Shown here: in pieces, positions 4,591 to 34,601 of the stretch
Numbering within the stretch: the first letter of the stretch is position 1
Layout: each line of letters begins with the position of its first letter
Origin: Candidatus Magasanikbacteria bacterium GW2011_GWA2_56_11
Lineage (GTDB): Bacteria > Patescibacteriota > Patescibacteriia > Magasanikbacterales > UBA922
Length of the DNA stretch: 54,914 nt
Assembly (NCBI GenBank): GCA_001004885.1
Contig: LCRX01000015.1
Location: 1-54,914, forward strand
Direction: 5' to 3'
Translations under genes and position numbers: made by a program
The notes under the pieces: model-generated
What the model was told of the DNA's origin: nothing
Databases searched by the model: none
Seen by the model: the letters and a program-made list of their open reading frames with translations, nothing else

Positions 4591-4707
4591 GTTACACCTC
4601 GGTCTCTGCCCGTCTGTCATACTTAGGCATGACACGACGAGACGCAGTGAGTCCAAGGAATGCCTAAGTATGATAGACGGATAGGGACCCGCGAGCGGAG
4701 GGAACAG
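4591..4707 (+). repeat. dispersed hairpin element, copy 1
   Basis: arms 4601-4630 / 4660-4689 (30 bp, 3 G-T pairs, 1 mismatch) around loop gacacgacgagacgcagtgagtccaagga. Confidence 0.9.
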
Positions 4708-4832
4708 GGATAGTAACCGGGAACATCAAGGCGTAAAGAACAAGAATCGAAGAGAAATAGGATAAGGGAAAAAATAATAGCAAAGAATGAACTGGTAGTG
4801 GGTTATCAGCAATTCTATCCTAAGTTGAGCCG

Positions 4833-4912
4833 AAACATAGACTGATTTTCACGGCGCCAATGTCTGAGCCTGTAAGAGCGAGTTTTGGTGCCGTAAAAAT
4901 CAGTCTATGTTT
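4833..4912. repeat. long inverted repeat (second hairpin type)
   Basis: aaacatagactgattttcacggcgccaa (4833-4860) pairs with 4885-4912 (1 mismatch, 1 G-T); 24-nt loop. Confidence 0.8.
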
Positions 4913-4980
4913 GAGGCGAAAAGGGGGAAACTCGCTATGAGTTCAATCCGCGAGCTATTATACCAATATTCAAACGCGCT

Positions 4981-5035
4981 AACAAACAAATAAAAACTCC
5001 GCGCGTTTTGGGCGGGGAGTTATTATTTGTTTGTT
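4981..5035 (-). terminator. intrinsic terminator of rpmA (possibly bidirectional)
   Basis: aacaaacaaataa..aactcc / ggagtt..ttatttgtttgtt hairpin with a U-rich tail directly after the rpmA stop. Confidence 0.7.
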
Positions 5036-5315
5036 AGACCGCCGGTACCACGTTCACGAAAGTGGTAACCCGCCGATTGCCGTCAAAGCGCTGGCGTTTT
5101 TTGCGGATAAATTTTACTTGTCCGGCGTTCGTGGCGAACAGAGTGTCATCGCCGCCGCGGCCGACGTTTTTACCAGGGTGGATTCTCGTGCCGCGCTGTC
5201 TAACCAGCACGGTGCCGGCCTTGACCGCTTCGCCGTCTCCTACCTTGACGCCAAGGTACTTGGGCTGTGAATCGCGGCCGAGCCGAGTAGCGCCACCCGC
5301 CTTTTTATGGGCCAT
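5034..5315 (-). CDS. rpmA: 50S ribosomal protein L27
   Basis: [14 protein letters not shown]...LGVK...[20 protein letters not shown]. Confidence 0.98.
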
Positions 5316-5426
5316 AAAATATTTTTAAAGGCTGTTCCCCTTCGCTACCACGAAGAGTACTGTCTTAAAGAGGCCAGTCCGTCTATCTGGTTGCAGACGC
5401 GTAACTTAGCCCCTAGAGTTGGCTAG

Positions 5427-5477
5427 AATATACCAAAGGCCGCTTATCTTGTCAAGGCCGGGCTCATCTTCTATAAT
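5427..5477. promoter_or_regulatory. overlapping divergent sigma70-type promoters (rpmA and ftsW operon)
   Basis: minus: TTGACA(5455-5450)-N17-TATATT(5432-5427); plus: TTGTCA(5449)-N17-TATAAT(5472-5477). Confidence 0.7.
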
Positions 5478-5483
5478 ATACCT

Positions 5484-5846
5484 ATGAAACTCTCACTTTA
5501 CCCGCCGAAATTATTTTTTACCCGCTGGCCGGTAGCCGTTGCCGGCAGCCTGGCGATAGCCGGCAACCTCTCTGCCTGGCTGTGGTTGTGGCTGCAGGTG
5601 CCGCGGACCGGCGGCCAGATGGTCTTGCACTACACCGTACTGTTTGGGGTTGACCGGGTCGGCCCCTACCGGGCGCTGTACTACGCTCCGGCCTTGGGCT
5701 TGGCGGTTCTGGTTGTCAATTTAGCCATCGGCTGGCTTTTGTACCGGCAGGATAAGTTTATCGCCGAGCTTCTCATGGCGGTAGCCGCAGCCGTGCAAAT
5801 CGCAGTATTTTTCTCCAGTTATCTCCTGGTACTTCTCAACGCTTAG
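5484..5846 (+). CDS. small membrane protein
   Basis: 120 aa, three hydrophobic segments, LHYTVLFGVD motif; upstream of ftsW. Confidence 0.75.
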   Translation: MKLSLYPPKLFFTRWPVAVAGSLAIAGNLSAWLWLWLQVPRTGGQMVLHYTVLFGVDRVGPYRALYYAPALGLAVLVVNLAIGWLLYRQDKFIAELLMAVAAAVQIAVFFSSYLLVLLNA

Positions 5847-5850
5847 TGCC

Positions 5851-6978
5851 ATGCCGCGCGCTTTACCGGACAGTCCGCCGGACTTCCCCCTACTTATCGC
5901 CGCCGGGTCCCTGGTGCTTTTTGGTCTGGTGGCTTTGAGCTCCGCCAGCATTTCGGTCGGACTTGACCTGGCCGGCGATCCCTACTATTTTATCCGCCGC
6001 CAAATTATGTACGGTTTTTTGCCGGGCATTTTTTTTGGGTTTATAGCTTATACGATCCATTACGGACGCTGGAACCGGCTGTCGCTGTGGATATTTGGCT
6101 TGAGCGTCCTCTTGCTCGTTCTCGTGGCCATACCGGGCATTGGCACCGGCTACACCAAGGACGCCCGGAGCTGGTTTACTCTTTTTGGAGCGTCTTTTCA
6201 GCCGGCCGAGGCGGCTAAACTGGCGCTGATCATTTTTTTGGCCAGTTTTCTCGACCGTAATCGGGCAGGGCTCGCGAGTTTTCGGCAGGGTTTTCTTCCG
6301 GCCCTGGCCATAGGGTCTATTCCCGTGGTTTTGGTTTTGTTGCAGCCCGACGTCGGGACGGCGACGATTTTGTTTTCGATTGTTTTCTGCCTCCTTTTTT
6401 TTGCGGGAGCGCAGTGGCGGCATTTGTTGCTTCTTATGGGCGCCGGGCTGTCGGGTTTTGTTCTCATGGTGGCGTTGGCGCCCTACCGGCTCAATCGTCT
6501 CATGACTTTTTTGCATCCGGAACTTGACCCGCAGGGTATTGGCTATCATATTAACCAGGCTTTTTTGGCGATCGGTTCCGGCGGCTGGCTGGGTTTGGGC
6601 CTGGGCCGGTCGCAGCAGAAGTTTCAGTATCTTCCGGAGGTGCACGCTGACAGCATTTTTGCCGTCATTGCCGAGGAGTTGGGCTTTGTTATCTCGCTTT
6701 CCCTGATAGCGCTCATTCTCTTTATACTCCTGCGGCTCCTCAAACTGGCGCAAAAAGCCCCGGACGATTTTGGCCGCCTGCTGCTTGCCGGTATCGCCGC
6801 CTGGATTGGGGTTCAGTCTTTTTTCAATATTGGAGCCATGCTGGGCCTGCTCCCGCTCACGGGCGTGCCGCTGCCTTTTGTCAGCCACGGTGGCAGCGCT
6901 CTTTTGATAGGCCTAACCGCGATCGGTATCGCGCTTAATGTGAGTCGGGAATGTGATGTTCGGTCTAAATCCAGGTAG
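5851..6978 (+). CDS. ftsW: cell division protein FtsW (SEDS family)
   Basis: ARSWF, FQPAEAAK, LQPDVG, YLPEVHADSIF, GVPLPFVSHGGS; adjacent to murG. Confidence 0.92.
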   Translation: MPRALPDSPPDFPLLIAAGSLVLFGLVALSSASISVGLDLAGDPYYFIRRQIMYGFLPGIFFGFIAYTIHYGRWNRLSLWIFGLSVLLLVLVAIPGIGTGYTKDARSWFTLFGASFQPAEAAKLALIIFLASFLDRNRAGLASFRQGFLPALAIGSIPVVLVLLQPDVGTATILFSIVFCLLFFAGAQWRHLLLLMGAGLSGFVLMVALAPYRLNRLMTFLHPELDPQGIGYHINQAFLAIGSGGWLGLGLGRSQQKFQYLPEVHADSIFAVIAEELGFVISLSLIALILFILLRLLKLAQKAPDDFGRLLLAGIAAWIGVQSFFNIGAMLGLLPLTGVPLPFVSHGGSALLIGLTAIGIALNVSRECDVRSKSR

Positions 6979-7068
6979 CCTATTCTGACTGGGAATGACT
7001 CTTTTTTCGCGACCTTCTTGGTCATGATATATGCAGGCCGTCCTTGAATTTGTTTGTGCTATTTCCGG

Positions 7069-7180
7069 GTTTTCCTTCGTAGGGGGGCTTTCACCCGGAT
7101 ATTATACTTAGGCATTCCTTGGACTCACTGCGTCTCGTCGTGTCATGCCTAAGTATAATATCCGGGTGAAAGCCGGTGTA
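7069..7180 (-). repeat. dispersed hairpin element, copy 2
   Basis: perfect 30-bp arms 7086-7115 / 7145-7174; same 29-nt loop in reverse orientation. Confidence 0.9.
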
Positions 7181-7321
7181 GAGAAAGGGGCATTGTCTTC
7201 GAGCGGCATTTGTGGTTATCTTAAGACGGGCTGGTTGGATTTATTTATCACCAAACATAATCGCTGTCTAAAATTAGGTTTGACAAACAAGTCATTAGTC
7301 TCGAAGCCAATCAATTTCTTT

Positions 7322-7425
7322 TATACCACTGTTCCCGTCCGGACATAGTGTCTGGGCATGACACGACGAGACGCAGTGAGTCCAAGGAATGCCCAGACAC
7401 TATGTCCGGACGTGAACGCAGGAAC
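7322..7425 (+). repeat. dispersed hairpin element, copy 3
   Basis: arms 7331-7359 / 7389-7417 (1 mismatch) with a different stem sequence; identical 29-nt loop. Confidence 0.9.
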
Positions 7426-7512
7426 GGAGAAAAAAACGGGCGACAGGAGCGAATAAAAGGAAAAAGTACGACAGGAGAATAAACTAAGCATCAATACGCA
7501 AAAAAGCATTCT

Positions 7513-8589
7513 ATGAAAATCATCTTTTCCGGCGGCGGCACACTGGGTCCGGTAACGCCTCTGTTGGCGGTTCACGAGGTGGTTAAAAGCCGCTATCCGG
7601 AGGCCGAATTTTTGTGGGTTGGCACTCGGTCCGGACCGGAGAGGGGACTGGTCGAGGCCGCCGGCATTAGATTTGTTACCCTGCCGTCGGGTAAATTCCG
7701 GCGTTACCTGTCGGTCTGGAACATTGTTGACTTGGGGCGGATCGTAGCCGGCTTTTTTTACTCTCTCCGGCTCTTGTCCCGTGAAAGCCCGGATTTTTGC
7801 GTGTCGGCCGGCGGATTTATTTCCGTGCCGTTGCACTGGGCGTCCTGGCTTCTGGGCGTGCCGGCCTGGGTGCACCAGCAAGACGCGGACGTGGGGCTCG
7901 CGAACAAACTGATGGCTCCCTTTGCCCGCGTGGTGTCGGTCGTTTTTGCGGAGCAGGCCAGGCATTTTTCTCCGCGTCGGACGGTACATTTGGGTAATCC
8001 GGTACGCGGCGACATTCTGGACGGATCCAAGGAAGAGGCGGCGCGCCTGTTCGCGCTCCAACCAGGCCTGCCGGTAGTGTTTGCGACCGGCGGCGGGACC
8101 GGATCGCTGCGGTTGAACCAGCTGGTGGTGGAGGCGGTGCCGCAGCTGGCAGGCGTTTGCCAGGTGATTCATTTGTCGGGCAAAGAGCGTCCCCAGGAAC
8201 TGGTGGAACGGACGGTTAAGCTTTTTTCCGCTTATTACCAGGTGCACCAATTTTTTTCTACCGAGATGAAGCAGGCTTACGCGGCGGCGGATATTATCAT
8301 TTCCCGGGGCGGCTTTGGCACGCTGTCGGAAATCGCGGCGCTCGGCAGGAGCGCGATTATTATTCCCAAACCCGGACACCAGACGGAGAACGCGGTTTAT
8401 CTGCAATCGCGCGGGGCCGTGATTTACGTAAACGAAAAAACGTCTGATGGAAATTATTTGGCTAAACTTATCAAAGAATTGCTAGCCGACAGAGTGCGGC
8501 AAGAGCAGCTGAAACGGGCAGTCAGCCAAGTTTTGCCACCGGCCAAACAGGACGCCATTTTGGGGATTGTCGAGCGGCTAGTGGCCTAA
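7513..8589 (+). CDS. murG: MurG glycosyltransferase
   Basis: SGGGTLGPVTP (variant of GGTGGH), HQQD, GNPVR, GGGTGS, ISRGG; follows ftsW. Confidence 0.9.
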   Translation: MKIIFSGGGTLGPVTPLLAVHEVVKSRYPEAEFLWVGTRSGPERGLVEAAGIRFVTLPSGKFRRYLSVWNIVDLGRIVAGFFYSLRLLSRESPDFCVSAGGFISVPLHWASWLLGVPAWVHQQDADVGLANKLMAPFARVVSVVFAEQARHFSPRRTVHLGNPVRGDILDGSKEEAARLFALQPGLPVVFATGGGTGSLRLNQLVVEAVPQLAGVCQVIHLSGKERPQELVERTVKLFSAYYQVHQFFSTEMKQAYAAADIIISRGGFGTLSEIAALGRSAIIIPKPGHQTENAVYLQSRGAVIYVNEKTSDGNYLAKLIKELLADRVRQEQLKRAVSQVLPPAKQDAILGIVERLVA

Positions 8590-8620
8590 CAAGATCGAAG
8601 TTTTCCTATTTCCTGTCTCT

Positions 8621-8737
8621 CTGTTCCCTTCGCTCGCGGGTCCCTGCCCGGATATCATACTTAGGCATTCCTTGGACTCACTGCGTCTCGTCGTGTCATG
8701 CCTAAGTATGATATCCGGGCAGGGACCGAGGCGTAAC
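8621..8737 (-). repeat. dispersed hairpin element, copy 4
   Basis: perfect 30-bp arms 8639-8668 / 8698-8727; same loop; flanks gttacgcc and cgcgagcgaagggaacag match copy 1. Confidence 0.9.
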
Positions 8738-8904
8738 CTTGGTGTGTCGATTTTTGGTTTTAGGCGGGCTTTGTTTTTTGCTACGTCAGCTGTTAGACCG
8801 GGTTGTAAACACGGAAAATTGCTCGACTGTATATTTCGGCTTATGACTTTAGACATCTAGTCTCTATTCTGTTATACTGAGTTCACCGTATCTACGGCTC
8901 TGTT

Positions 8905-10791
8905 ATGCCAAATTTTCACCTCACTCAGGTCGGCAGCGCGCCCCCGCCGGAAGAAGATATTTGCTTGTTTGCCCAGACTAATTACCGCAATCACCTGCGG
9001 CGTTTTGGCATCAAGGTAGACGACCGGCGGCGGCACATGTATGTGATCGGCAAGACGGGTATGGGCAAGACTACCATGCTCGAAAATATGGTGCTGTCCG
9101 ACGTTTACAAGGGGCACGGCGTGGGTATCGTCGATCCGCACGGCGATTTTGCCGAGAAAATTATTGATTTTATACCGGCCAACCGGATTAACGATGTGGT
9201 CTACTTCAACCCCGCGGACATGGATCACCCGATCGGCTTTAACGTGCTTGAGGTTCACAGCGAAGAAGAAAAACACTTGATCGCCGCCGGTCTCATGGGT
9301 ATTTTCAAAAAAATCTGGCCGGACGTGTGGAGTTCGCGCATGGAGTACATTCTTAATAACACGATTTTAGCGCTGCTTGACTACCCGGGTTCCACCCTTC
9401 TCGGCATTAACCGCCTGTTGGCCGACAAGGAATACCGCCGCAAGGTCGTCCGCCAGCTTAGGGATCCGGTCGTCAAAGCCTTCTGGCAAAACGAGTTCGC
9501 GAGTTACAATGACCGCTACGCGCAAGAAGCGGTGGCGCCGATTCAAAATAAAATCGGCCAGTTTTTGTCGGCTTCGGTGATCCGCAATATTGTCGCTCAG
9601 GTTAATTCCACGATCAACATCCGCGAGATCATGGACTCCAAAAAAATTCTCATCATGAACCTGTCCAAGGGCCGCATTGGCGAGGACAACAGCCGGCTTT
9701 TGGGCGGCATGCTGATCACCAAAATCCAGCTCGCGGCCATGGAGAGAGTAGACACGCCGGAAGATCAGCGCCAGGATTTTTTTCTTTATGTCGACGAGTT
9801 TCAGAATTTCGCTTCTCCGAGCTTCGCCAACATTCTCTCGGAGGCCCGCAAGTACCGCCTGAGCTTGATTATGGCCCACCAGTACGTGATGCAGCTCGAC
9901 GAGGTGGTGGCCGACGCTGTTTTCGGCAACGTCGGCACGATTGTTTCTTTCCGTGTAGGCGGCGGAGATGCCGAAACTCTGACCAAAGAGTTTACGCCGG
10001 TTTTTTTGGAAGAAGACGTGGTTAACCTGGCCAAGTACCAGATCATCCTCAAGCTCATGATCGACGGCGTGGCCTCGCAGCCGTTTAGCGCCATGACCAT
10101 GCCGCCGATAGGTTCACGCACGGGCGTGAGCGACAAAGTGATCCGGGTTTCACGGGAACACTACTCCAAGAAGCGGGAGGTTATAGAAGACAAAATTATC
10201 CGCTGGAGCGGCATGGGCGAGGGCGGAGGCGACGATGAAGAAGACGCCGAGGTGGAACCGCCGCCGAGAAGCGCGCCGCCGGCCAAGTCCAACCCGCCAA
10301 CAGCCCGGCCGGCGGCTGAACCGGGAAAAACTCTGTCCCTAAAGGACTTACTGCCCAAATCAGCTCCTCCGGAAGCCGCGGTGGTTTTGAATTTACCGGC
10401 GCCAGAGCCAAAAGCGCAGCTGGCGGTGAAAACTGGCGCGCAAACCGCTCTGGCTGCGCCGAACCAGCAGGCCACCGCTGTCCAGTCCGGCGGCCGGGAC
10501 GGAGAGGGCGATAAGAAACGGCGGCGCAAACGCAAGCGGAAGAAAAATAATTCAGCCGCCTCGGAGATCGTCGGCAACCCAGCCGGCCGCGGACCGGGAG
10601 AACCGCACCGTACGCCGCCACTAGACTCTCCGGCGCCGGCGGCTCCCGTCGCTACGGCAGTTCAGAGCAGTCCGGCACCGCAGCCGATCCAAACTGGTCC
10701 GGCCATAGAGGTCGCCGCGGCCGCGCCAAAGAGCCCGCCTAAACCGACAGAGCAGCCGATTGCGCCGGATCAAGTTATTAGTTTTGATTAA
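8905..10791 (+). CDS. TraG/VirD4-like (HerA/FtsK superfamily) ATPase with Pro/Ala-rich disordered tail
   Basis: RRRHMYVIGKTGMGKTT Walker A, YVDEFQNF Walker B, LSEARKYRLSLIMAHQY; low-complexity C-terminal ~190 aa. Confidence 0.85.
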   Translation: MPNFHLTQVGSAPPPEEDICLFAQTNYRNHLRRFGIKVDDRRRHMYVIGKTGMGKTTMLENMVLSDVYKGHGVGIVDPHGDFAEKIIDFIPANRINDVVYFNPADMDHPIGFNVLEVHSEEEKHLIAAGLMGIFKKIWPDVWSSRMEYILNNTILALLDYPGSTLLGINRLLADKEYRRKVVRQLRDPVVKAFWQNEFASYNDRYAQEAVAPIQNKIGQFLSASVIRNIVAQVNSTINIREIMDSKKILIMNLSKGRIGEDNSRLLGGMLITKIQLAAMERVDTPEDQRQDFFLYVDEFQNFASPSFANILSEARKYRLSLIMAHQYVMQLDEVVADAVFGNVGTIVSFRVGGGDAETLTKEFTPVFLEEDVVNLAKYQIILKLMIDGVASQPFSAMTMPPIGSRTGVSDKVIRVSREHYSKKREVIEDKIIRWSGMGEGGGDDEEDAEVEPPPRSAPPAKSNPPTARPAAEPGKTLSLKDLLPKSAPPEAAVVLNLPAPEPKAQLAVKTGAQTALAAPNQQATAVQSGGRDGEGDKKRRRKRKRKKNNSAASEIVGNPAGRGPGEPHRTPPLDSPAPAAPVATAVQSSPAPQPIQTGPAIEVAAAAPKSPPKPTEQPIAPDQVISFD

Positions 10792-10880
10792 TGCCGAGCT
10801 AGCCCCCGCCTTCTCTGGTTTTCTGTATTAACCTTGAGGTTTTTTTGGTCCGGGTGTAAGGTTTTAAAAAACCTTGAGCT

Positions 10881-12297: not shown

Positions 12298-12300
12298 ATT

Positions 12301-25472: not shown

Positions 25473-25782
25473 CTCTGTTTTCCTGAATCAGGAGTTCAGA
25501 GAGAGGTTGGCAGGGCGCATCGTGAGTGAGATTGCACACGCCCCGTGGAGTGGAAAGGTGTGAGGCGCGCAGTACTCGGCGCCACAGTGTCGCGTCCGGC
25601 CTTAGGCTCCAGCCATCGGCCTGGCGAGCTTTCATCCATTCGCCGCTCGCCAGCTGGGCGTTCGGACGCATCTCTACAAGAATTTTAAAGAGATGCGCCG
25701 TTTTATTTCGCGACTGTTAAGGCCGGCAAAGTAGCGGGGTAAACTGGGGATAACTTTCCAATTTCCGTGTACTTCGCGTATT

Positions 25783-25811
25783 TTGACAACTTAGATTAAC
25801 TGTTGGATACT
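25783..25811 (+). promoter_or_regulatory. sigma70-type promoter
   Basis: TTGACA-N17-GATACT upstream of ORF 25877. Confidence 0.55.
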
Positions 25812-25876
25812 TATCCCAACCGCGTGTTAATCAGTGCCGCGTTGCGGAGCGCAGCATCCCGGCTTTATTCCTAAGG

Positions 25877-26284: not shown

Positions 26285-26453
26285 ATGTTTGTCAGCTTTA
26301 GGCAAACAAAACCCCGCACTTGGGCAGTGCGGGGTCTTTCTCTATATTCCTTTGACAAGAAATCCAGAGTGAGATTCGACCGGCGGCGCTCCCATCCTAC
26401 GATGGTGAGCGCCGCCGGGTCGTCGGGCGATCAGGCGGGGTGGCTGGGCCCAG

Positions 26454-27119: not shown

Positions 27120-27321
27120 GTCTCCTCCTTTGGAGAGGCCGTTTGTTCGATCCGTTAACGAGCGCCTTGCCCAACGGGACCCAGTACGGCCAAACTGGGG
27201 GAGAGAATCTTGGCAACCGAAGACTCTCTTCCCCAGTCTGGCTCCGCCTTTGTAATGATCGGCGATATGTTGAGGGAAAATGCCTAGTTTTAGGCTTTTT
27301 CTCCATTGTACATAACGCGCC

Positions 27322-27366
27322 AGTATAGCACGAAAACTTGCTTTTGTCAATAGATTGTGCTATATT
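27322..27366. promoter_or_regulatory. overlapping divergent sigma70-type promoters (phosphatase gene vs ATP-grasp gene)
   Basis: minus: TTGACA(27350-27345)-N17-TATACT(27327-27322); plus: TTGCTT(27338)-N17-TATATT(27361-27366). Confidence 0.65.
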
Positions 27367-27398
27367 TTGCTCATAAATAAGCTAAATCGGTTGGCTAT

Positions 27399-28376
27399 AT
27401 GGAGCACCTCAAATTTTTTTCGGAGATATCAAAAGGCAATGTCGATATCGCCGGCGGCAAAGGCGCTTCCCTGGGCGAAATGACCCAGGCCGGGCTGGCA
27501 GTTCCGCCCGGGTTTGTGGTCCTATCCAGCGCCTTTGACCGTTTCATTGAAGAAACGCATTTAAATGGCGAGATAATCGCCCGACTCGCCGCCGTGAACC
27601 CGGCCGATACGAACAGCGTAGACCGGGCGAGCAATGCCTTGCGCGGCGTCATTCACGACACCTCCATGCCAGAGGATCTAAAGGCGGATATCCTGGGCGC
27701 GTACAAAAAACTTGGGGCCGAGTACGTCGCCGTCCGCTCGAGCGCGACCGCCGAGGATTCGTCGGTCGCGAGCTGGGCCGGAGAGCTCGAAACCTATCTC
27801 AATACGACCGAGGCCGATCTGCTTGAGCGCGTCCGGCGCTGCTGGTCGTCTCTTTTTACTCCGCGGGCTATTTTTTACCGCCATGAAAAAGATTTGATTA
27901 GCGCGCACGTATCGGTGGCGGTCGTGGTGCAAAAAATGATTCAGTCGGAGATTTCGGGTATTGCTTTTACTGTCCACCCCGTGACCGAGGACCGCGATCA
28001 GATGATCATCGAGGCCGGCTATGGGCTGGGCGAGGCGATAGTGAGCGGCCAGATTACGCCGGATTCATATGTCGTAAGCAAAGGCGAGATGAGTATTTTG
28101 GATATTTCTATCGGACACCAGACGCGAAAGCTGGAAAAAATGGCCGCTGCCGGAGTTTCGGCAAACAAAGATGAAGAAAATCCTTCCAATGCCTGGGTTG
28201 ACCTCGGCGAGGCCGGGGAGAGGCAGAAGCTCACCGGGCGGCAGATAATGGAACTGGCGGCGCTGTGCAAAAAAATCGAGGACCACTACGGCTTCCCCTG
28301 CGATATCGAATGGGCCTACGAGGGCGGGCAATTTTACATTACCCAGAGCCGACCGATTACGACGCTGAAAACATAA
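27399..28376 (+). CDS. stand-alone PPDK/PEP-synthase N-terminal ATP-grasp domain protein
   Basis: GGKGASLGEM, VPPGF, AVRSSATAED, VVVQKM, GLGEAIVSG, DIEWA..G.FYI.QSRPITT then stop; no His or barrel domain. Confidence 0.92.
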   Translation: MEHLKFFSEISKGNVDIAGGKGASLGEMTQAGLAVPPGFVVLSSAFDRFIEETHLNGEIIARLAAVNPADTNSVDRASNALRGVIHDTSMPEDLKADILGAYKKLGAEYVAVRSSATAEDSSVASWAGELETYLNTTEADLLERVRRCWSSLFTPRAIFYRHEKDLISAHVSVAVVVQKMIQSEISGIAFTVHPVTEDRDQMIIEAGYGLGEAIVSGQITPDSYVVSKGEMSILDISIGHQTRKLEKMAAAGVSANKDEENPSNAWVDLGEAGERQKLTGRQIMELAALCKKIEDHYGFPCDIEWAYEGGQFYITQSRPITTLKT

Positions 28377-28380
28377 TATT

Positions 28381-28530
28381 GTCCAGCGCGACGCGCAAAA
28401 GATAATCAGCGAAGGCATGACCGAGGAGTATCTCAACTACCTCTACATCCAGAACCTCAAGGATAGAGAGGGGACTATCTATGTACCGGTTAACCCGGGC
28501 AACGGCTTGCCGCTGTTCCTCGGCCTCTAG
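28381..28530 (+). pseudogene. C-terminal fragment resembling an SPFH/prohibitin-family protein
   Basis: reads VQRDAQKIISEGMTEEYLNYLYIQNLKDREGTIYVPVNPGNGLPLFLGL*; no N-terminus present. Confidence 0.45.
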
Positions 28531-28723
28531 GTAGCGTACCAGTTTCGCGGTTGGTATTCCGTTGAGAAATAATTTATATCCACAGGGATATTAAGAGGCA
28601 AGGTCTTGATAGTCTTTGTGGCTTTCCCTTCTGTGGTTCTAATAATTTGCCTAGTTTTAGCCTTTACACTGGGTACTACTAACTAATATATTTTCTCCGA
28701 TTATCCATTTCAGAAAAAATCAG

Positions 28724-28752
28724 TTGACAGCCAGGCGAAAAAGTGCTATTAT
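28724..28752 (+). promoter_or_regulatory. sigma70-type promoter
   Basis: TTGACA-N17-TATTAT. Confidence 0.75.
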
Positions 28753-28874
28753 ACAGCTAACAATTTGGGCAACGGCGTCAGCAAGGTTCCCAAAGGTTAT
28801 CCCGGCTCGGCCGGGATAAGGTCGATTTAACCAAGCTTCTCAAATCACTTTGGGAACCAAAGAAGACAGTTCGT

Positions 28875-29174
28875 ATGGCATTTGGAAACGACCGGCAAAT
28901 GTACGATGTGGATCTTACCTGCGCTCAGTGCGGGACCCACATCAGTCAGTTGCCTTTCCAGCCGTCCGGCGACCGTCCAGTCTATTGTTCAGACTGCAAC
29001 CGTGCCCGCCGCGACCGCTTCTCGAGCAACACTCGTCCGCCACGTCAGATGTTCCAGGTAGATCTTACCTGCGCTGAATGCGGCACCGCCATTACCGAGC
29101 TTCCGTTCCAGCCGAGCGGCGACAAACCGGTATATTGCCGGAATTGTATGCAAGCTCGCCGGGACAGGGCCTAG
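28875..29174 (+). CDS. tandem CxxC-x17-CxxC zinc-ribbon protein
   Basis: two repeats of CA[QE]CG..I..LPFQPSGD[RK]PVYC..C; terminator hairpin with T tract at ~29190-29218. Confidence 0.9.
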   Translation: MAFGNDRQMYDVDLTCAQCGTHISQLPFQPSGDRPVYCSDCNRARRDRFSSNTRPPRQMFQVDLTCAECGTAITELPFQPSGDKPVYCRNCMQARRDRA

Positions 29175-29288
29175 CCGGTAACAGCAACAAAAGATCCCCG
29201 TGAGGGGGTTTTTTGTTTAACCAGATAAACCGCCAGCTTAATCGCTGGCGGTTTTCATTTGCCCCAGGCTTTGGACGGGTACACTAAA

Positions 29289-29317
29289 TTGACAAGAATG
29301 GCTTTTGCCGCTATAGT
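29289..29317 (+). promoter_or_regulatory. sigma70-type promoter
   Basis: TTGACA-N17-TATAGT. Confidence 0.7.
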
Positions 29318-29323
29318 TTTTAC

Positions 29324-29459
29324 GGTGTTTCCCACCTTTGGCGTCGTGGCTCAATCCCGCCTTCGGCTTGCCCGCCCCACTTCTGCTTCCACGGTATGAG
29401 TGTAGGGCAGCCAAAAAAGCCACGACGCCATCCCTACACCTGGCCCTCGGGCCTTTTTT
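29324..29459 (+). ncRNA. candidate structured RNA (6S-like long hairpin or mnmA leader)
   Basis: perfect 13-bp helix 29339-29351/29418-29430, end pairing ggtgt/acacc, inner ttgccc/gggcag, then a short hairpin plus T6. Confidence 0.45.
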
Positions 29460-29468
29460 AATAGGATT

Positions 29469-30578
29469 ATGGCCAAAAAGCGGCGGTCGAAAATTCTTGT
29501 AGCCATGTCCGGCGGCGTTGACTCGTCTGTCGCGGCTTGGCAGCTATTGCGGCAGGGCGACGACGTAACCGGGGCCTTTATGGTCAACTACGGCGGTGGC
29601 GCGGACGCAAGGACAGGGGCTTCCGCCGCCGGCGAGTGCTGGGTGCCAGAGTATCGCGACGCGCTCAGGGTGGCAGCTTACCTCGGCATACCGCTCCTGC
29701 GCCTCGATTTTACCCGCGAATACCGCCAGCTCGTGCTTAGTTATTTGTACCGCGAATACCGCGCCGGCCGCACTCCAAACCCAGACGTTCTGTGCAACCG
29801 GCAGATAAAATTCGGCGCCTGGCTCGACACTGCCCGTCGCTTGGGATTTGCGCAGCTGGCCACCGGCCATTACGCCCAAATATTAGCTCCGGATCGCGGC
29901 CACCAATTCTATCGGCTGGGCACGGCCCGCGATAAGCAAAAAGACCAGACGTATTTCTTGCACCAACTGACGCAAAATCAGCTCCAGGCGGCGCTCTTTC
30001 CCGTAGGCGGCTATACCAAAAGCGAGGTCCGGCAGCTGGCCAGGCGCGCCGGCCTGCCGACCGCCGAAAAAGAGGAAAGCATGGGAATTTGTTTTGTGGG
30101 CGAAGTGCCAATGAAAGATTTTTTGGGCGCCAAAATACCGCCGCATCCGGGCCGGGTAGTAACCGCTGCCGGCCAGGTAATCGGCCAACATCAGGGTTTG
30201 CCTTTTTATACCATCGGGCAGCGGCATATCGGGGTCAATTGCGGCGGCGCTGCCGGCGACCGCCAGCGGCCGCTGTATGTAGCCGCCAAGAGGCCCCGCA
30301 CCAACGAGCTCATAGTCGCGGAGAAAGATGACCCGACCTTGCTTAGCCGGGAATTTACGGTTGCCGGCATCAACTGGATAAGTGGACACCGCCCGGCCTT
30401 TCCATTAGAATGTAAAGTACGCCTGCGGCACCGGCAGCCATGGCGAAAGTGCCGCGTCCTGGCTCTCGGGCGGAGGACAAAAGTCATCTGCGCCCGGCCG
30501 GAGTGGGGGGTAACGCCGGGCCAGTTCGCAGTCTTTTATGACGACTTTTCCTGCCTCGGCGGGGGAGCTGTCAAATAA
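29469..30578 (+). CDS. mnmA: tRNA 2-thiouridine synthase MnmA
   Basis: AMSGGVDSS, TPNPDVLCN..IKF, ATGHYA, KDQTYFL, ESMGICFVG, TPGQFAVFY. Confidence 0.96.
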   Translation: MAKKRRSKILVAMSGGVDSSVAAWQLLRQGDDVTGAFMVNYGGGADARTGASAAGECWVPEYRDALRVAAYLGIPLLRLDFTREYRQLVLSYLYREYRAGRTPNPDVLCNRQIKFGAWLDTARRLGFAQLATGHYAQILAPDRGHQFYRLGTARDKQKDQTYFLHQLTQNQLQAALFPVGGYTKSEVRQLARRAGLPTAEKEESMGICFVGEVPMKDFLGAKIPPHPGRVVTAAGQVIGQHQGLPFYTIGQRHIGVNCGGAAGDRQRPLYVAAKRPRTNELIVAEKDDPTLLSREFTVAGINWISGHRPAFPLECKVRLRHRQPWRKCRVLALGRRTKVICARPEWGVTPGQFAVFYDDFSCLGGGAVK

Positions 30579-30586
30579 TATTCCCT

Positions 30587-32488
30587 ATGCGCACACTGTT
30601 CTCACCGCGATTCTCAGAGCGCGCCGCGCGGCTCAGTCTGGTCGGACTGGCTTTTGCCGGCGCGGTACTCTACGATATTTTTTTCTGGCAGTTGGACCCA
30701 GGGCTCGGGTTCACCATATTTGCCCTGGCGCTCATAGCGGCTATAGTTTTGACTGCCGGCCTGGCCGGACACGTGCGCCACCGGTCGGCCTATCTTTTGC
30801 TTCTGCCCCTTGTCATTCTCGGGGCCACGCGCTCGCTCTATAGCAATGACTTCGTGGCCGTGGCAGTGCCTGTGGCCTTTGGAGTCCTCCTTCTAACTTT
30901 CGTTATCCTGCTTCTCACGCGCAATCCGCACAAATATCGGTTCCATTTTTCCCGCGTGCCGCTCCTGCGCAGTCCCAACCTGCCGCTCCTGCGCCTGCCG
31001 GAGGTTTTCCGCGATCTCCTGGGCGCGGATAAAACCCGAACCCGAGCCATAGTTTGGGGCGTCATCATAGCCGTACCCCTTCTCGCGGCCTTTACAGCCC
31101 TGTTCGCCGGGGCAGACGCGATTTTTTCCGAGTGGCTGAAAGCTCTGGCCATACCCGAGGCGCTGTGGCGCACGCTCAGAACCGTCATTCTCACCGGATT
31201 ATTTTCCGGCATTCTCTACGCCCTGGTTCATCCCGAACACATCCTGTCCGCCAAAATCCACGCGGCCAAAAAATTGGAAACCGTTCTTGTCTCGACCGTA
31301 CTCATTTTGATCAACGGCCTGTTTGCGATTTTTGTCGCCATTCAAATTAAATACCTTTTCGGCTCGGCCACCTACGTGCTGAAAAACGGCCTCACTTTTG
31401 CCGATTACGCCCGCAACGGCTTCTTCCAGCTGGTTTGGGTCATGGTGCTCGCGGCCTTGATACTGATTGTGGTTTACCGCTCCGCCGCCGTACACGGACA
31501 CCGCCCGTTTACGAGCGCCCTGCAAATACTGCTTATTGTCCAGGTGGGTATAGTCGCCGCCTCCGCTCTCAGGCGGATGAACCTGTACCAGACTGCTTAC
31601 GGCTTCACCGTGCTCAGGCTTTATGTCGAGTGGTTCATTTATTTTGTTTTTACCCTGCTGGCATTCGCGGGTTTGGCCGTACTGGGCAAAATATCTTTTT
31701 CCCGGTTTGTTCACGTTAGCCTCGGCGGAGCGGTTTTGGCCCTCACCGCGGTCGGGGCCGTCAATGTCGACCGGCAGATAGCCGACGAAAATGTCCGACG
31801 GTTTGCGCTCGAAAAACAAACCGTTGACCTCGAGTATCTGGCGCGCCTCTCGGCGGACGCCGTGCCTGGCATCGTGCGGTTATCCGAACCGGAAGCGTTA
31901 AAACGGTTGTCAGTGGAACAAGTGCTGCGCCTGAATCAAATTTTGGCCGACAGCGCCGCGGATGTCGCGGCGCACGCGGACTGGCGTTCCGTTACCCTCG
32001 GCCACCTCGCGGCGGCCGACGCGGCCGCCAGGCTGGCTGAGCCGGCCCACGCCGCTATCCGGGAGGCGATTGAGCTAGACCGGCAGTATCAGAGAACGGA
32101 AACACAGCTGAACGCGGACGGCCAAGCGCGCCCCCTGGCGCAGTGTCCGTTTAATCAAATTTATTATGATTGCGCCAGGGTGGAATCCGATGGCGTTGAA
32201 TTCTGGCTGCGGCTGACAAGCAGCCCAGAGGACGCCGCGGCCGCCGCCAGCGCCGCGTCTCTCGCGGTTTATCGCGCCGATTTGGTATCCGGCTTCAAAA
32301 GTTACCGCCTGCTCGCCGAAAAAGCGCTGGCGACGGCCAGCGGAGAGAGCCGCTTTAGCCTGAGCGGCAGCGGTCTCGTGCTCGAAGCGCGCCCGGCGGA
32401 ACGAGCGCACTTTCTTCACCCGGTAGAGCTGAGCGAATCCGGCGTTATCTTTGCAGACAGCCGGCCGCTCTCATTGTCTAATCTTTAG
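30587..32488 (+). CDS. multi-pass membrane protein, DUF4173-like
   Basis: many TM helices; LF..AD.IF, YAR.GFFQL, RM.LY..AYGFT.LR, YL..LSADAVP. Confidence 0.8.
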   Translation: MRTLFSPRFSERAARLSLVGLAFAGAVLYDIFFWQLDPGLGFTIFALALIAAIVLTAGLAGHVRHRSAYLLLLPLVILGATRSLYSNDFVAVAVPVAFGVLLLTFVILLLTRNPHKYRFHFSRVPLLRSPNLPLLRLPEVFRDLLGADKTRTRAIVWGVIIAVPLLAAFTALFAGADAIFSEWLKALAIPEALWRTLRTVILTGLFSGILYALVHPEHILSAKIHAAKKLETVLVSTVLILINGLFAIFVAIQIKYLFGSATYVLKNGLTFADYARNGFFQLVWVMVLAALILIVVYRSAAVHGHRPFTSALQILLIVQVGIVAASALRRMNLYQTAYGFTVLRLYVEWFIYFVFTLLAFAGLAVLGKISFSRFVHVSLGGAVLALTAVGAVNVDRQIADENVRRFALEKQTVDLEYLARLSADAVPGIVRLSEPEALKRLSVEQVLRLNQILADSAADVAAHADWRSVTLGHLAAADAAARLAEPAHAAIREAIELDRQYQRTETQLNADGQARPLAQCPFNQIYYDCARVESDGVEFWLRLTSSPEDAAAAASAASLAVYRADLVSGFKSYRLLAEKALATASGESRFSLSGSGLVLEARPAERAHFLHPVELSESGVIFADSRPLSLSNL

Positions 32489-32502
32489 GGAAACCAACCT
32501 GT

Positions 32503-34407
32503 ATGACCACCCACGACATCCGCCGGCTGTATCTGGACTATTTTGAAAAACAGGGGCACGCGATCGTGCCGTCGTCCTCTCTTTTGCCCGAAAACGACCC
32601 GACGACGCTTTTTACCGGCAGCGGCATGCAGCCGATGGTACCTTATCTTCTCGGCCAAAAACATCCGCTAGGCACCCGCCTCACCGACTCGCAAAAATGT
32701 TTTCGCAGCCAGGACGTAGAAGAGGTGGGCGACAACCGGCACACGACTTTCTTTGAGATGCTCGGCAACTGGTCGCTCGGCGATTATTTTAAGGCCGAGC
32801 AGATACCATGGATGTACGGATTTCTCACTCGGGAACTCAAGCTCGATCCGGCCCGCCTTTACTTTACCTGCTTTCGCGGCCTTACGGAGATAGGCATACC
32901 CCGCGACGAGGAGTCGGCCGAATTATGGCGAAATTTGCTCCAAACCGATGGCGTAGACGCCGGCATAGCCGATTTTCCGGAGCGCGACGGACTGCAGGGC
33001 GCGCGGATTTTTTATTACGATGAAAAGAAAAACTGGTGGAGCCGCGCCGGGGTGCCGGGCGCCATGCCGATAGGGGAGCCGGGCGGACCGGATACCGAGA
33101 TGTTCTGGGACTTCGGCGCCGAGGGCCGGCGGCACGAAAATTCGGCCTGGCGCGAACTGCCGTGCCACGTGAATTGCGATTGCGGCCGGTTTATGGAGAT
33201 AGGCAACAACGTCTTTATGCAGTACCAGCGGACAGAATCGGGGTTCTCTGCGTTGCCGCAAAAAAATGTTGACTTCGGCGGCGGCCTGGAGAGGCTCTCG
33301 GCGGCTCTCTCCGATGAGCCGGACATATTCAAAATCGATTTATTCGCCCCGGCGCGGGTAAAATTGGAAGAATTGACCGGGCAGACATACGGTGCCGCGG
33401 CCGCCGATACCCGCGCCATGCGCATTATCCTCGACCATCTGCGGGCCGCTGTCTTCCTTATCGCCGACGGCGCGGCTCCGGGCAACAAAGACCAAGGCTA
33501 TTTTGTCCGCCGCCTTTTGCGCCGTTCCATCCGCTACGCCCAAAAAATCGGCCGCCGCCAGTCCTTCTGTCCGGCGCTGGGCGAGGCCGTGATCAAGACT
33601 TATGCCGCCTCATACCCGCAATTAGCCCACGAAGCCGGCCGCATTTTGGAGGAGTTGGAACAGGAAGAGGCCAAGTTTCGCCGCACCCTCGACCAGGGGA
33701 TGCGACAATTCGACGTTTTGGTTCAAGGTTTGAAAAACGGCAGCAGCATAAGCGCGGACGCGGCTTTCGATCTGTACCAAAGTTACGGCTTCCCCCTGGA
33801 AATGACCGAGGAGCTGGCGGCCGAGCGATCTCTGGCCGTGGACACCAAAGGATTCGATCTCGAAATGAAGCGGCACCAGGAGCTTTCCCGGCAGGGATCG
33901 GAGCACAAGTTCAAAGGCGGTCTCTCGGACCACAGCGAGATGAGCGTGAAATACCACACGGCCACGCACCTGTTGCATGCCACCCTAAAAAAGGTGCTCG
34001 GAGAGCATGTCGAGCAGCGCGGCAGCAACATTACGCCGGAGCGCCTGCGTTTTGACTTTTCCCATCCGGCCAAGATGACGGCCGAGCAGATTAGCGAAAC
34101 CGAAAAATTGATCAACGCGGCTATAAGCAGGGACTACCCGGTTTCGTGGCAGGAAATGAGCGTCGAAGAGGCCCGCGCCAAGCAGGCGATCGGCTTGTTT
34201 GCTGAACGGTACGATGGTATAGTAAAAGTGTACACCATTGGCGACTCCGGCGAACCGGCCGTAGCCGATCCTGGGGCCCCTGCCTACAGCCGCGAAATCT
34301 GCGGCGGTCCGCACGTAGAGCACACCGGGGTGCTGGGCCATTTCAGAATAGTGAAAGAGGAAGCCTGCAGCGCCGGCATCCGGAGAATCAAAGCAGTGCT
34401 CGAATAA
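32503..34407 (+). CDS. alaS: alanine-tRNA ligase, short form lacking C-Ala
   Basis: TLFTGSGMQP, HTTFFEMLGNWS.GDYFK, VDFGGGLER, editing-site HTATH and EICGGPHV; ends at 634 aa. Confidence 0.95.
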   Translation: MTTHDIRRLYLDYFEKQGHAIVPSSSLLPENDPTTLFTGSGMQPMVPYLLGQKHPLGTRLTDSQKCFRSQDVEEVGDNRHTTFFEMLGNWSLGDYFKAEQIPWMYGFLTRELKLDPARLYFTCFRGLTEIGIPRDEESAELWRNLLQTDGVDAGIADFPERDGLQGARIFYYDEKKNWWSRAGVPGAMPIGEPGGPDTEMFWDFGAEGRRHENSAWRELPCHVNCDCGRFMEIGNNVFMQYQRTESGFSALPQKNVDFGGGLERLSAALSDEPDIFKIDLFAPARVKLEELTGQTYGAAAADTRAMRIILDHLRAAVFLIADGAAPGNKDQGYFVRRLLRRSIRYAQKIGRRQSFCPALGEAVIKTYAASYPQLAHEAGRILEELEQEEAKFRRTLDQGMRQFDVLVQGLKNGSSISADAAFDLYQSYGFPLEMTEELAAERSLAVDTKGFDLEMKRHQELSRQGSEHKFKGGLSDHSEMSVKYHTATHLLHATLKKVLGEHVEQRGSNITPERLRFDFSHPAKMTAEQISETEKLINAAISRDYPVSWQEMSVEEARAKQAIGLFAERYDGIVKVYTIGDSGEPAVADPGAPAYSREICGGPHVEHTGVLGHFRIVKEEACSAGIRRIKAVLE

Positions 34408-34487
34408 AAGAATGGACTACCGAACGACGATTCCACGCGAAACAAAAAAGAACTAAAACCGTTAAACCTAAACGTCAACGCCCTATC

Positions 34488-34601
34488 GTTACGCCCCGGT
34501 TCCCACCCTGGCTTACTGCCAGGCGCGACACGGCGAGCCGCAGCGAGCCCAAGGAGCGTCCGGCAATAAGCCAGGGTGGGAACCCACGAGCGGAGGGACA
34601 G
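34488..34601 (+). repeat. dispersed hairpin element, copy 5 (divergent)
   Basis: arms 34498-34526 / 34556-34584; loop gacacggcgagccgcagcgagcccaagga (25/29 identical); flanks gttacgcc and cgagcggaggga conserved. Confidence 0.85.

What the first reader, a model, noticed from the sequence alone, without database searches (positions are those of the whole stretch)
4591..34601. Dispersed hairpin family with invariant loop and fully co-varying ~30-bp stems
Seen: five intergenic copies (4591-4707 +, 7069-7180 -, 7322-7425 +, 8621-8737 -, 34488-34601 +). The 29-nt loop gacacgacgagacgcagtgagtccaagga is identical in four copies and 25/29 in the fifth. The stems differ strongly between copies (ccggatatcatacttaggcat, ccggacatagtgtctgggcat, ccctggcttactgccaggcgc), yet each pairs almost perfectly with its own partner arm. 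Short flanks outside the stem are conserved (TAYRCC 5'; G[AG]AGG[AG]AAC-like 3'). Within the loop, gac/gtc changes to ggc/gcc (compensatory) around a c-GCA-g triloop. Established: cGNAg is an unusually stable ssDNA mini-hairpin. This is the inverse of REP/REPIN or MITE conservation, where arms are conserved and the centre varies. Inference: a non-autonomous element or structured DNA/RNA signal whose loop is read by a protein (for example a HUH/RAYT-type nuclease) while the stem is kept only as structure, or is regenerated by arm-to-arm copying.
Basis: partly seen in the sequence, partly recalled or inferred. Interest (0 to 1): 0.75.

Follow-up and report, generated by a model that had tools for sequence, protein, structure and literature searches.

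The report
Capped hairpin repeat, invariant tip
An uncultured groundwater bacterium (Candidatus Magasanikbacteria) carries six copies of a roughly 117-base non-coding hairpin whose 39-base tip is identical between copies, while its 30-base-pair stem has drifted by up to half yet still pairs; it is an unusual, undescribed kind of inserted palindromic repeat and its function is not yet known.

Summary

**What is there**
- Five copies lie in the window. A sixth lies elsewhere in the same population genome, and a decayed 74-nt relic sits in the rpmA leader.
- Five copies share an identical 39-nt tip: a 29-nt loop plus 5 closing pairs. The rest of the stem and the flanks are only 50-70% alike.
- 97% of stem cells still pair, and 22 stem pairs changed on both sides.

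**Where it sits**
- The genome is a CPR bacterium (Ca. Magasanikbacteria) with no sequenced close relative.
- In most of the 11 relatives examined, ftsW and murG abut. Here a 534-bp spacer holding two copies separates them, so this is inserted DNA.

**What it is not**
- Orientation relative to genes is mixed: 2 sense, 4 antisense.
- No copy has its own promoter or terminator.
- No Rfam family matches. mraW RNA scores 47.8 bits, below its cut-off of 50, and scores similarly on both strands.
- No transposase or HUH gene lies in the window.
- The family is low-copy (about 5 exact cores) and was found only in this organism.

**Best reading (confidence about 0.5)**
It is a lineage-specific REP/MITE-like palindromic insertion that works or spreads as a folded single strand. 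A factor reads the tip, and the stem only has to pair.

**Limits**

The parts
4591..4707 (+). Copy c1. Arms 4601-4630 / 4660-4689 (87% paired), loop 4631-4659. Lies between orf267(-) and rpmA(-), antisense to both.
   Evidence: 129 bits
7069..7180 (-). Copy c2. Perfect 30-bp arms 7086-7115 / 7145-7174, loop 7116-7144. Lies after ftsW, antisense to the flanking genes.
   Evidence: 132 bits
7322..7425 (+). Copy c3. Arms 7331-7359 / 7389-7417, loop 7360-7388. Lies 88 nt upstream of murG, in sense. Its stem is the most diverged among the copies with the exact core.
   Evidence: 129 bits
8621..8737 (-). Copy c4. Perfect 30-bp arms 8639-8668 / 8698-8727, loop 8669-8697. Lies between murG and the TraG/VirD4-like gene, antisense to both.
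   Evidence: 140 bits
34488..34601 (+). Copy c5. 29-bp arms 34498-34526 / 34556-34584. The variant loop 34527-34555 has 4 changes, all compatible with the small apical helix. Lies between alaS and a gtrA-like gene, in sense.
   Evidence: 124 bits
5332..5405 (-). Decayed short relative (c7) in the rpmA leader. It has the same ends (GTTACGC ... AGCGAAGGGGAACAG) and shares CGTCTG / GATAGACGGA with c1, but has no long stem and no cap.
   Evidence: homology is inferred from a joint match of two boxes, with no formal statistic
7181..7321 (.). Spacer between the inverted pair c2/c3. It holds about 30 nt of shared 5' flank on each side and weak divergent promoter-like hexamers. It carries 9 of the 16 differences between two strain haplotypes.

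Best explanation
This is a lineage-restricted, low-copy family of non-coding palindromic insertion elements in a Ca. Magasanikbacteria (CPR) chromosome. There are six full copies and one relic.

Each copy is a 29-30-bp hairpin capped by an invariant 39-nt module: a 5-bp closing helix plus a 29-nt loop holding two GAG-centred repeats 10 nt apart. A 5' box (G)TTACRCC and a 3' box CGRAGGRA flank the hairpin.

Shown:
- The elements occupy gene junctions that are tight in relatives, so they were inserted.
- The stem is constrained only to pair.
- The cap is constrained, or kept uniform, in sequence.

Inferred:
- The element acts and/or is copied as a folded single strand (DNA or RNA). A sequence-specific factor reads the cap, and the stem merely presents it.
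- Stem pairing is restored after mutation by compensatory substitution, helped by template switching within the palindrome.
- When transcribed, in either orientation, the 30-bp helices put long double-stranded segments into the UTRs of the flanking genes. Those segments are likely RNase III-type substrates. They also uncouple murG from ftsW.
For: Reality and covariation.

Sharp step in conservation: the cap is 100% identical in five copies, against 52-70% for the stem and 50-57% for the flanks.

Insertion:
- The order orf267-rpmA-orf120-ftsW-murG is conserved in the relatives whose fetched loci cover it.
- ftsW and murG lie 0-20 nt apart in 9 of 11 relatives, against 534 nt here.
- The orf267-rpmA spacer is 482 nt here, against about 70-95 nt in L006 and L015.

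Non-coding and without its own signals.

Mixed orientation, which fits a DNA element better than a dedicated cis-RNA.

Low copy number and restriction to one organism:
- The core unitig has depth 18.3 against 4-5 for single-copy flanks.
- Pattern scans of genomes, viral contigs and metagenomes find only this population.
- The covariance model finds nothing more in 208 kb and a further 75 kb.

Constraint on the cap's own fold: the four changes in c5 give A-U to G-C, G.U to G-C and A.G to C-G on the GACACG strand.

Signs of arm-to-arm copying: a matched 1-bp deletion in both arms of c5 and nine transversion-type pair swaps. The mechanism is described in PMC8794818.

Contrast within the same genome: the high-copy repeat at 4802-4945 keeps its stem and varies its loop.
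Against: - No mobilising enzyme, target-site duplication or empty site in a close relative was found. The nearest MurG is only 66% identical.
- With six copies, four of them within 4.2 kb, spread could be by local duplication instead of transposition.
- Perfect identity of all 39 cap positions in five old-looking copies is more than selection usually gives. Copy 5 shows that some positions can change. Homogenisation by gene conversion, or recent spread of the cap alone, may therefore be involved.
- Nearest-neighbour folding does not find the loop significantly structured (z -1.0 to -1.3 for sense RNA; nothing for DNA or antisense).
- Stem mismatches show no strand preference: about 4 G.T against 3 A.C on the sense strand, read. 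Neither RNA strand is favoured.
- There are no expression data.
Confidence: 0.5

Rival explanations
1. The 39-nt cap is younger than its carriers. A discrete module, or a gene-conversion tract, has spread among the tips of an older, already diverged hairpin family. The cap's identity then reflects recency or homogenisation, not site-by-site selection.
For: - Conservation shows a step, not a gradient. The 39 nt are 100% identical in five copies, while the very next stem block is 53% identical.
- All four loop changes fall in one copy, c5, and none in the other five.
- Earlier unchecked notes of this scan describe conserved caps on copy-specific stems in other Magasanikbacteria, and a different family in this genome.
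Against: - Every cap found sits on a homologous stem of exactly 29-30 bp. None sits on an unrelated hairpin or outside one.
- Only 5 bp of identical sequence flank the loop in c3 and c6. That is little homology for recombination.
- The changes in c5 preserve structure, which points to constraint.
Confidence: 0.2
2. It is a family of paralogous structured RNAs, either small RNAs or cis-acting UTR elements. A protein or a partner RNA binds the apical loop, and the stems covary under RNA-level selection.
For: - Textbook RNA-like covariation: 19 transition-type against 9 transversion-type pair swaps, and the purine/pyrimidine pattern is kept at the stem base.
- The same small apical fold is predicted for both cap variants, but only on the GACACG strand.
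- G11.U18 pairs only on that strand.
- c3 and c5, and the relic c7, lie in sense within 5' leaders.
Against: - Four of six copies are antisense to the flanking genes.
- No sigma-70-like promoter precedes a copy and no terminator follows one, although clear promoters exist nearby.
- Stem mismatches do not favour G.U on the sense strand.
- No Rfam match.
- No conservation in any other species, even at the same gene junctions.
Confidence: 0.15
3. It is a non-autonomous element moved by a Y1 HUH transposase of the IS200/IS605 or RAYT type, which recognises the hairpin and a TTAC-like tetranucleotide at its 5' side.
For: - TTAC precedes the stem in c1, c4, c5 and c7. It is CTAC in c2 and TTAT in c3.
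- The element is a hairpin, and c2/c3 form an inverted doublet reminiscent of a REPIN.
Against: - Homology runs about 25-30 nt upstream of TTAC.
- c6 lacks TTAC at the aligned position.
- There is a single central hairpin, not separate left-end and right-end hairpins.
- Stems are not conserved and copy number is low.
- No Y1 transposase domain occurs in the window's ORFs. The rest of the genome could not be searched.
Confidence: 0.08
4. The conserved 29 bp is a duplex-DNA binding site: two direct YGAGNC repeats 10 bp apart, the arrangement used by winged-helix response regulators. It would serve a regulator of cell-envelope genes.
For: - The repeats CGAGAC-N4-TGAGTC become two identical GCGAGCC units in c5.
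- Copies lie upstream of murG, a gtrA-like gene and a TraG-like gene.
- A duplex site is indifferent to orientation.
Against: - This does not explain why a 30-bp perfect palindrome flanks every site.
- It does not explain why the palindrome covaries.
- In a compact genome every intergenic site lies upstream of some gene.
- c6 lies by gmk and rluD, which are unrelated functions.
Confidence: 0.05
5. It is a member of the mraW RNA family (Rfam RF01746), a cis-regulatory leader of cell-division and cell-wall operons.
For: - c4 scores 47.8 bits (E about 4e-8) and c1 scores 37.1 bits.
- The stem base GGUCCCUGCCCG resembles the model consensus.
- The site is next to ftsW and murG.
Against: - The score is below the gathering score of 50.
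- c4 scores almost as well on the opposite strand (44.3 bits). Plant and animal microRNA-precursor models match about as well, so the hit reflects a long GC-rich hairpin.
- The 29-nt loop is not matched, and c2, c3 and c5 do not hit.
- The family is actinobacterial and lies upstream of mraW, which is not the case here.
Confidence: 0.02

Closest known systems
REP / REPIN elements (BIMEs) with RAYT transposases
   Same: - Intergenic, non-coding palindromes that form hairpins in single-stranded DNA or RNA.
- They occur in both orientations and as inverted doublets (c2/c3).
- They are thought to be read as structures by a dedicated protein.
   Different: - REPs are 20-40 nt, present in hundreds of copies, carry a conserved stem and a GTAG-type tag, and have a variable loop.
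- Here the unit is at least 117 nt and there are about 6 copies.
- The stem is free to vary and the loop is frozen.
- No RAYT was found.
Correia elements (CREE/NEMIS) and similar bacterial MITEs (RUP, ERIC)
   Same: - A unit of 100-160 bp that folds end to end and is inserted between genes and into operons.
- A functional site lies at the centre (IHF in Correia elements).
- The hairpins in transcripts are RNase III substrates (own knowledge).
   Different: - Correia inverted repeats are conserved because a transposase reads them, and they carry TA duplications.
- Here no duplication was found and the arms are up to 50% diverged.
- Only the centre is conserved.
Hairpin origins and nick sites read by HUH Rep proteins, and plasmid single-strand origins (ssoA with its CS-6 loop)
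   Same: Across family members the loop sequence is invariant and the stem covaries, because a protein reads the loop of a folded single strand (own knowledge). This is the same conservation logic as seen here.
   Different: - Those are single sites on plasmids or viruses, next to a rep gene.
- Here there are six chromosomal sites with a 29-nt loop, no rep gene nearby, and no known nick motif.
Integron attC sites
   Same: They are recognised as folded single-stranded hairpins whose structure, not sequence, is conserved.
   Different: - attC keeps its basal R boxes (RYYYAAC...GTTRRRY) and extrahelical bases, and its tip is variable.
- Here the tip is kept, the stems are perfect, the polarity of the end boxes is GTT...AAC, and the copies are dispersed, not in an array.
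mraW RNA motif (RF01746)
   Same: A long GC-rich hairpin next to cell-division and cell-wall genes, with a sub-threshold model hit.
   Different: See the membership test: the hit is below the cut-off, symmetric on the two strands, has a different loop, and comes from a different phylum and gene context.

Membership tests
mraW RNA (RF01746) | Covariance-model score at or above the gathering score (50 bits) on one strand | tested here: not met
   The best score is 47.8 bits (c4, + strand) and 44.3 bits on the other strand. c1 scores 37.1 bits. c2, c3 and c5 do not hit.
mraW RNA (RF01746) | 5' leader of mraW (rsmH) in Actinomycetota | tested here: not met
   The host is Ca. Magasanikbacteria. The copies lie by orf267, ftsW, murG and alaS, mostly antisense.
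REP/REPIN-RAYT | Short palindrome with a conserved stem and a conserved terminal tetranucleotide tag | tested here: not met
   Arms differ at 4-16 of 30 positions between copies. There is no GTAG tag, and the TTAC box is internal to the element.
REP/REPIN-RAYT | High copy number (tens to hundreds per genome) | tested here: not met
   The depth ratio gives about 4-5 exact cores. Six copies are found in about 130 kb of the genome sampled, and none elsewhere.
REP/REPIN-RAYT | A RAYT (Y1 HUH) gene in the genome, usually flanked by REPs | not testable with these tools
MITE (Correia-like) | Presence/absence polymorphism at orthologous sites | tested here: inconclusive
   The elements are absent at the same junctions in 11 relatives, but those are distant (57-64% MurG identity). 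All strain-level contigs carry them. No close relative exists in the databases.
MITE (Correia-like) | Conserved terminal inverted repeats and a target-site duplication | tested here: not met
   - No consistent direct repeat flanks the copies.
- The only significant one, 20 nt around c1, is a copy of the neighbouring repeat's terminus.
- The ends of the unit are the least conserved part.
IS200/IS605-derived element | A target tetranucleotide immediately outside the left end, and separate left-end and right-end hairpins | tested here: not met
   Homology continues upstream of TTAC, and c6 lacks it at the aligned position. There is a single central hairpin.
Integron attC | R''/R' boxes (RYYYAAC ... 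GTTRRRY), extrahelical bases, and an array next to an integrase | tested here: not met
   The end boxes read GTTAC ... GGGAAC, which is the opposite polarity. c2 and c4 have perfect 30-bp stems. The copies are dispersed and no recombinase is nearby.
Independent small RNA gene | Own promoter and terminator; discrete transcript | tested here: inconclusive
   No sigma-70-type promoter or intrinsic terminator is associated with any copy. No usable RNA data exist.

The most novel reading that the evidence does not exclude
The 39-nt cap may be the active part of an undescribed class of CPR elements. In this reading, an apical module is kept letter-identical in every copy within a genome while its carrier hairpin drifts.

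Two things could hold it fixed:
- an unknown structure-specific enzyme or binding protein reads it; or
- sense and antisense copies must stay mutually complementary.

The four clustered copies are arranged head-to-head (-> <- -> <-) around orf120-ftsW and around murG. The 5' and 3' copies on one mRNA therefore carry perfectly complementary 29-nt loops. These could pair by kissing, which would close or insulate the transcript.
Probability: 0.12. Interest if true: 0.8.

Novelty: new variant of a known kind. Interest (0 to 1): 0.55.

Why it matters
Interspersed palindromic repeats are usually explained by an enzyme that reads conserved arms. Here the arms are free to vary and only the tip is frozen. 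That points to recognition of a folded single strand at its loop. It also makes the family a clean natural case of compensatory stem evolution, possibly driven by template switching, inside one genome.

The elements have split an ancestrally coupled ftsW-murG pair and other housekeeping junctions in a roughly 1-Mb symbiont-type genome. They probably shape how mRNA is processed in an organism with very few known regulators.

Unchecked notes from this scan report similar "conserved cap, variable stem" repeats in other Magasanikbacteria. The pattern may therefore be a lineage-wide phenomenon with an unknown enzyme behind it.

Tried and rejected
- **Known RNA families.** Rfam at gathering threshold finds only 3 tRNAs. 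Permissive scans of 4400-9000, of c4 and of the bare cap give only generic long-hairpin hits (microRNA precursors, mraW) or nothing. This includes all self-cleaving ribozyme models.
- **More copies.** The loop pattern gave no hit in genome contigs or viral contigs. In metagenomes it found only this organism, plus one chance coding hit, L003. The covariance model R1 found nothing new.
- **Close relatives for empty sites.** None exist; the best MurG is 66% identical.
- **RNA evidence.** Only three tiny SOLiD metatranscriptomes exist; the one laid on the region placed no reads.
- **Small ORF.** MPKYD... starts at the ATG of the 3' arm. Rejected because c5 has no start codon and is frame-shifted, the palindrome gives the same peptide on both strands, and the shared ATAG box is out of frame in c6.
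- **Stems as guides to other loci.** No 13-mer from any arm occurs elsewhere in the sequence held.
- **Invertible promoter switch between c2 and c3.** Rejected because each hairpin keeps its own matched arms in all strains, and the two haplotypes differ by point changes, not by an inversion.
- **Common ends with the abundant repeat at 4802-4945.** Flank similarity is not significant, apart from the 20-nt repeat next to c1.
- **Conversion gradient from the hairpin tip.** Rejected because identity falls in a step, not a slope.
- **Target-site duplication at the ftsW-murG junction (ATTCT).** Unconvincing against the relatives' junctions.
Full report
**1. Observation**

- The 29-nt loop occurs exactly four times, with none expected by chance. 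The fifth copy has four changes.
- Each copy folds into a 29-30-bp hairpin at -60 to -73 kcal/mol, z = -7.7 to -11.3. The inverted-repeat scan lists them as the longest palindromes in the window.
- A metagenome pattern scan added a sixth copy (c6, L004 7831-7919, identical in L002). It also returned the same locus from a 99.6%-identical strain (L001) and one chance coding hit (L003).

**2. Covariation and the conservation step**

On the six-copy alignment A2:
- 97.3% of stem cells pair, and 22 stem pairs changed on both sides.
- No shuffle out of 500 reaches the observed values. Sliding the 3' partner by 1-3 columns drops pairing to 22-42%.
- The arms differ at 4-16 of 30 positions between copies, while the loop differs at 0 of 29 among five copies.

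The change in conservation is a step, not a slope. The loop plus five closing pairs is 100% identical. The next stem blocks are 52-70% identical, the flanks 50-57%, and the 3' box CGRAGGRA 73%.

Copy 5 is the outlier.
- Its four loop changes turn A7-U22 into G-C, G11.U18 into G-C and A12.G17 into C-G.
- The same changes make two identical GCGAGCC units 10 nt apart.
- It has lost one base pair symmetrically from both arms.

Pair swaps are 19 transition-type and 9 transversion-type (read). Strain-level SNPs in the same region are about 25 transitions to 19 transversions. Stem mismatches on the GACACG strand are about four G.T and three A.C, so neither strand is favoured.

Nearest-neighbour folding gives the same small apical helix for both cap variants, but only as sense RNA and without significance (z -1.0 and -1.3). 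It gives nothing for antisense or DNA.

**3. Context**

The genome is a groundwater Ca. Magasanikbacteria (CPR). This rests on earlier notes and on the names of the MurG relatives.

Gene map:

| Feature | Coordinates (strand) |
|---|---|
| M24 peptidase | 2682-3767 (-) |
| orf267 | 3749-4552 (-) |
| c1 | (+) |
| an unrelated 144-bp repeat | 4802-4945 |
| rpmA terminator | 4979-5037 |
| rpmA | 5034-5315 (-) |
| divergent consensus promoters | about 5427-5477 |
| orf120 | 5484-5846 |
| ftsW | 5851-6978 |
| c2 | (-) |
| c3 | (+) |
| murG | 7513-8589 |
| c4 | (-) |
| TraG/VirD4-like gene | 8905-10791 |
| alaS | 32503-34407 |
| c5 | (+) |
| gtrA-like gene | 34793-35227 |

c6 lies between an rluD-like gene and gmk, antisense to both. 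So two copies are in sense and four are antisense to their neighbours.

No sigma-70-type promoter or intrinsic terminator is attached to any copy, although clear promoters are detected nearby. No transposase, recombinase or HUH domain was found in the window's ORFs.

**4. The elements are inserted DNA**

- The order orf267-rpmA-orf120-ftsW-murG is conserved in the relatives whose fetched loci cover it (13 relatives fetched, 57-64% MurG identity).
- ftsW and murG overlap or lie within about 20 nt in 9 of the 11 relatives that show both genes. The two exceptions, L010 and L013, have other spacers, and L013 carries an AT-rich hairpin there.
- Here 534 nt holding c2 and c3 separate the two genes.
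- The orf267-rpmA spacer is 482 nt here, against about 70-95 nt in L006 and L015.
- None of the relatives' loci holds a member of this family.
- The nearest MurG in 5.8 billion proteins is 66% identical. No close relative is therefore available for an empty-site or duplication test.
- Eight strain-level contigs all carry the elements with invariant loops. One polymorphism (7413 T>G) restores a pair in c3. The c2-c3 spacer carries 9 of the 16 differences between two haplotypes.

**5. Copy number and distribution**

- In run X1 the 39-nt core unitig has depth 18.3, against 4.1-5.2 for the single-copy contigs beside it. That gives about 4-5 exact cores, which matches c1-c4 plus c6. The loose ends are exactly the known arms.
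- About 75 kb more from the same genome's two contigs (partly overlapping sequence already held) holds no further copy.
- The family is thus small, and four of its copies cluster within 4.2 kb.

**6. Boundaries and relatives within the genome**

- Alignment with longer flanks shows weak homology for about 25-30 nt upstream of the TTAC box and into a purine-rich 3' tail. c6 lacks TTAC at the aligned position. The box is therefore internal to the element, not a target site.
- c2 and c3 share about 30 nt of extra 5' flank and form an inverted doublet.
- A 74-nt stretch in the rpmA leader (5405-5332, minus strand) has the same two end boxes and shares CGTCTG / GATAGACGGA with c1, but has no long stem and no cap. 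I read it as a decayed copy.
- The neighbouring repeat at 4802-4945 is a different, abundant family: summed depth about 360-680 against about 4. A second copy in L030 has nearly identical stems but three loop changes. That is the ordinary pattern, and it shows that the c family's behaviour is not a general property of hairpins in this genome.
- The right edge of that repeat lies 12 nt from the -10 box of the predicted orf267 promoter. This agrees with what earlier agents reported for that family.
- c1 and its tail are bracketed by a 20-nt direct repeat (17/20) that is a copy of that repeat's 5' terminus.

**7. Comparison with known families**

- Rfam gives nothing above threshold.
- The sub-threshold mraW hit (47.8 bits against 50) occurs on both strands. 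It sits beside equally good microRNA-precursor hits and does not cover the loop. The bare cap matches nothing.
- REP/REPIN, Correia-type MITEs, IS200/605 derivatives and attC sites each fail at least one defining feature that could be tested (see the membership table).
- The conservation logic, with an invariant loop and a covarying stem, is that of hairpins read at the loop by a protein. Examples are HUH Rep origins and plasmid single-strand origins (own knowledge). None of their other features is present.

**8. Interpretation**

Shown:
- It is an inserted, non-coding, low-copy palindromic family.
- The stem is constrained to pair.
- The cap is frozen in sequence.

Inferred:
- The element functions or propagates as a folded single strand whose cap is read by a factor.
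- Stems are repaired by compensatory change. Template switching within the palindrome (PMC8794818) helps account for the paired deletion and the transversion swaps.
- In transcripts of either orientation, the 30-bp helices would be RNase III-type substrates.

The main uncertainty is why the cap is perfectly uniform. Three explanations remain open:
- site-by-site selection;
- homogenisation or recent spread of the cap alone;
- a requirement that sense and antisense loops stay complementary. The four clustered copies alternate -> <- -> <- around orf120-ftsW and murG.

I could not separate these without the whole genome, close relatives or RNA data.

**9. Limits**

- The earlier notes of this scan are unchecked AI notes and were used only as leads.

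Noticed in passing
window 4802-4945: An unrelated hairpin repeat of about 144 bp, with 28-bp arms and a 24-nt loop.
- It is very abundant in the source metagenome: summed depth 360-680 against about 4.
- Its right edge is 12 nt from the -10 box of the predicted orf267 promoter (4985-4957, minus strand).
- A second copy lies at L030 12869-12948.
- It is probably the roughly 155-bp promoter-proximal MITE described in earlier notes for this genome.
   Followed up: partly
window 4552-4571 and 4793-4812: A 20-nt direct repeat (17/20) brackets c1 and its purine-rich tail. The repeat is a copy of the 5' terminus of the neighbouring abundant repeat, and the left copy abuts the orf267 start codon. Either c1 was inserted into that repeat's end, or a solo terminus was left behind.
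   Followed up: partly
window 7176-7319: The 144-nt spacer between c2 and c3 carries 9 of the 16 differences between two strain haplotypes. That is about 6% divergence, against about 0.3% elsewhere, and almost all are transitions. It also holds weak divergent promoter-like hexamers.
   Followed up: partly
window 8905-10791; L010, L012, L013: The TraG/VirD4-like coupling-protein gene downstream of murG is syntenic in relatives. It is far better conserved (81-84% over 435 aa) than MurG (57-64%), so it looks like a core gene, not part of a mobile element.
   Followed up: no
L013 3700-3807, 4308-4421, 5902-5994; L010 3518-3622: Other Magasanikbacteria carry unrelated AT-rich long hairpins (34-39-nt arms) at the same junctions: orf267-rpmA, rpmA-orf120 and ftsW-murG. 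These junctions are recurrently colonised by hairpin DNA.
   Followed up: no
window 46000-54914: A low-GC island (35-39%, against about 55% elsewhere) lies after a tRNA. It holds DpnI-like, KAP NTPase, AAA_14/DUF4143 and SWIM-finger genes and looks like a defence island.
   Followed up: no
window 5427-5477: Back-to-back near-consensus promoters.
- TTGACA-17-TATATT serves rpmA, with a leader of about 110 nt.
- TTGTCA-17-TATAAT ends 6 nt before the orf120 ATG, so that mRNA is probably leaderless.
   Followed up: no
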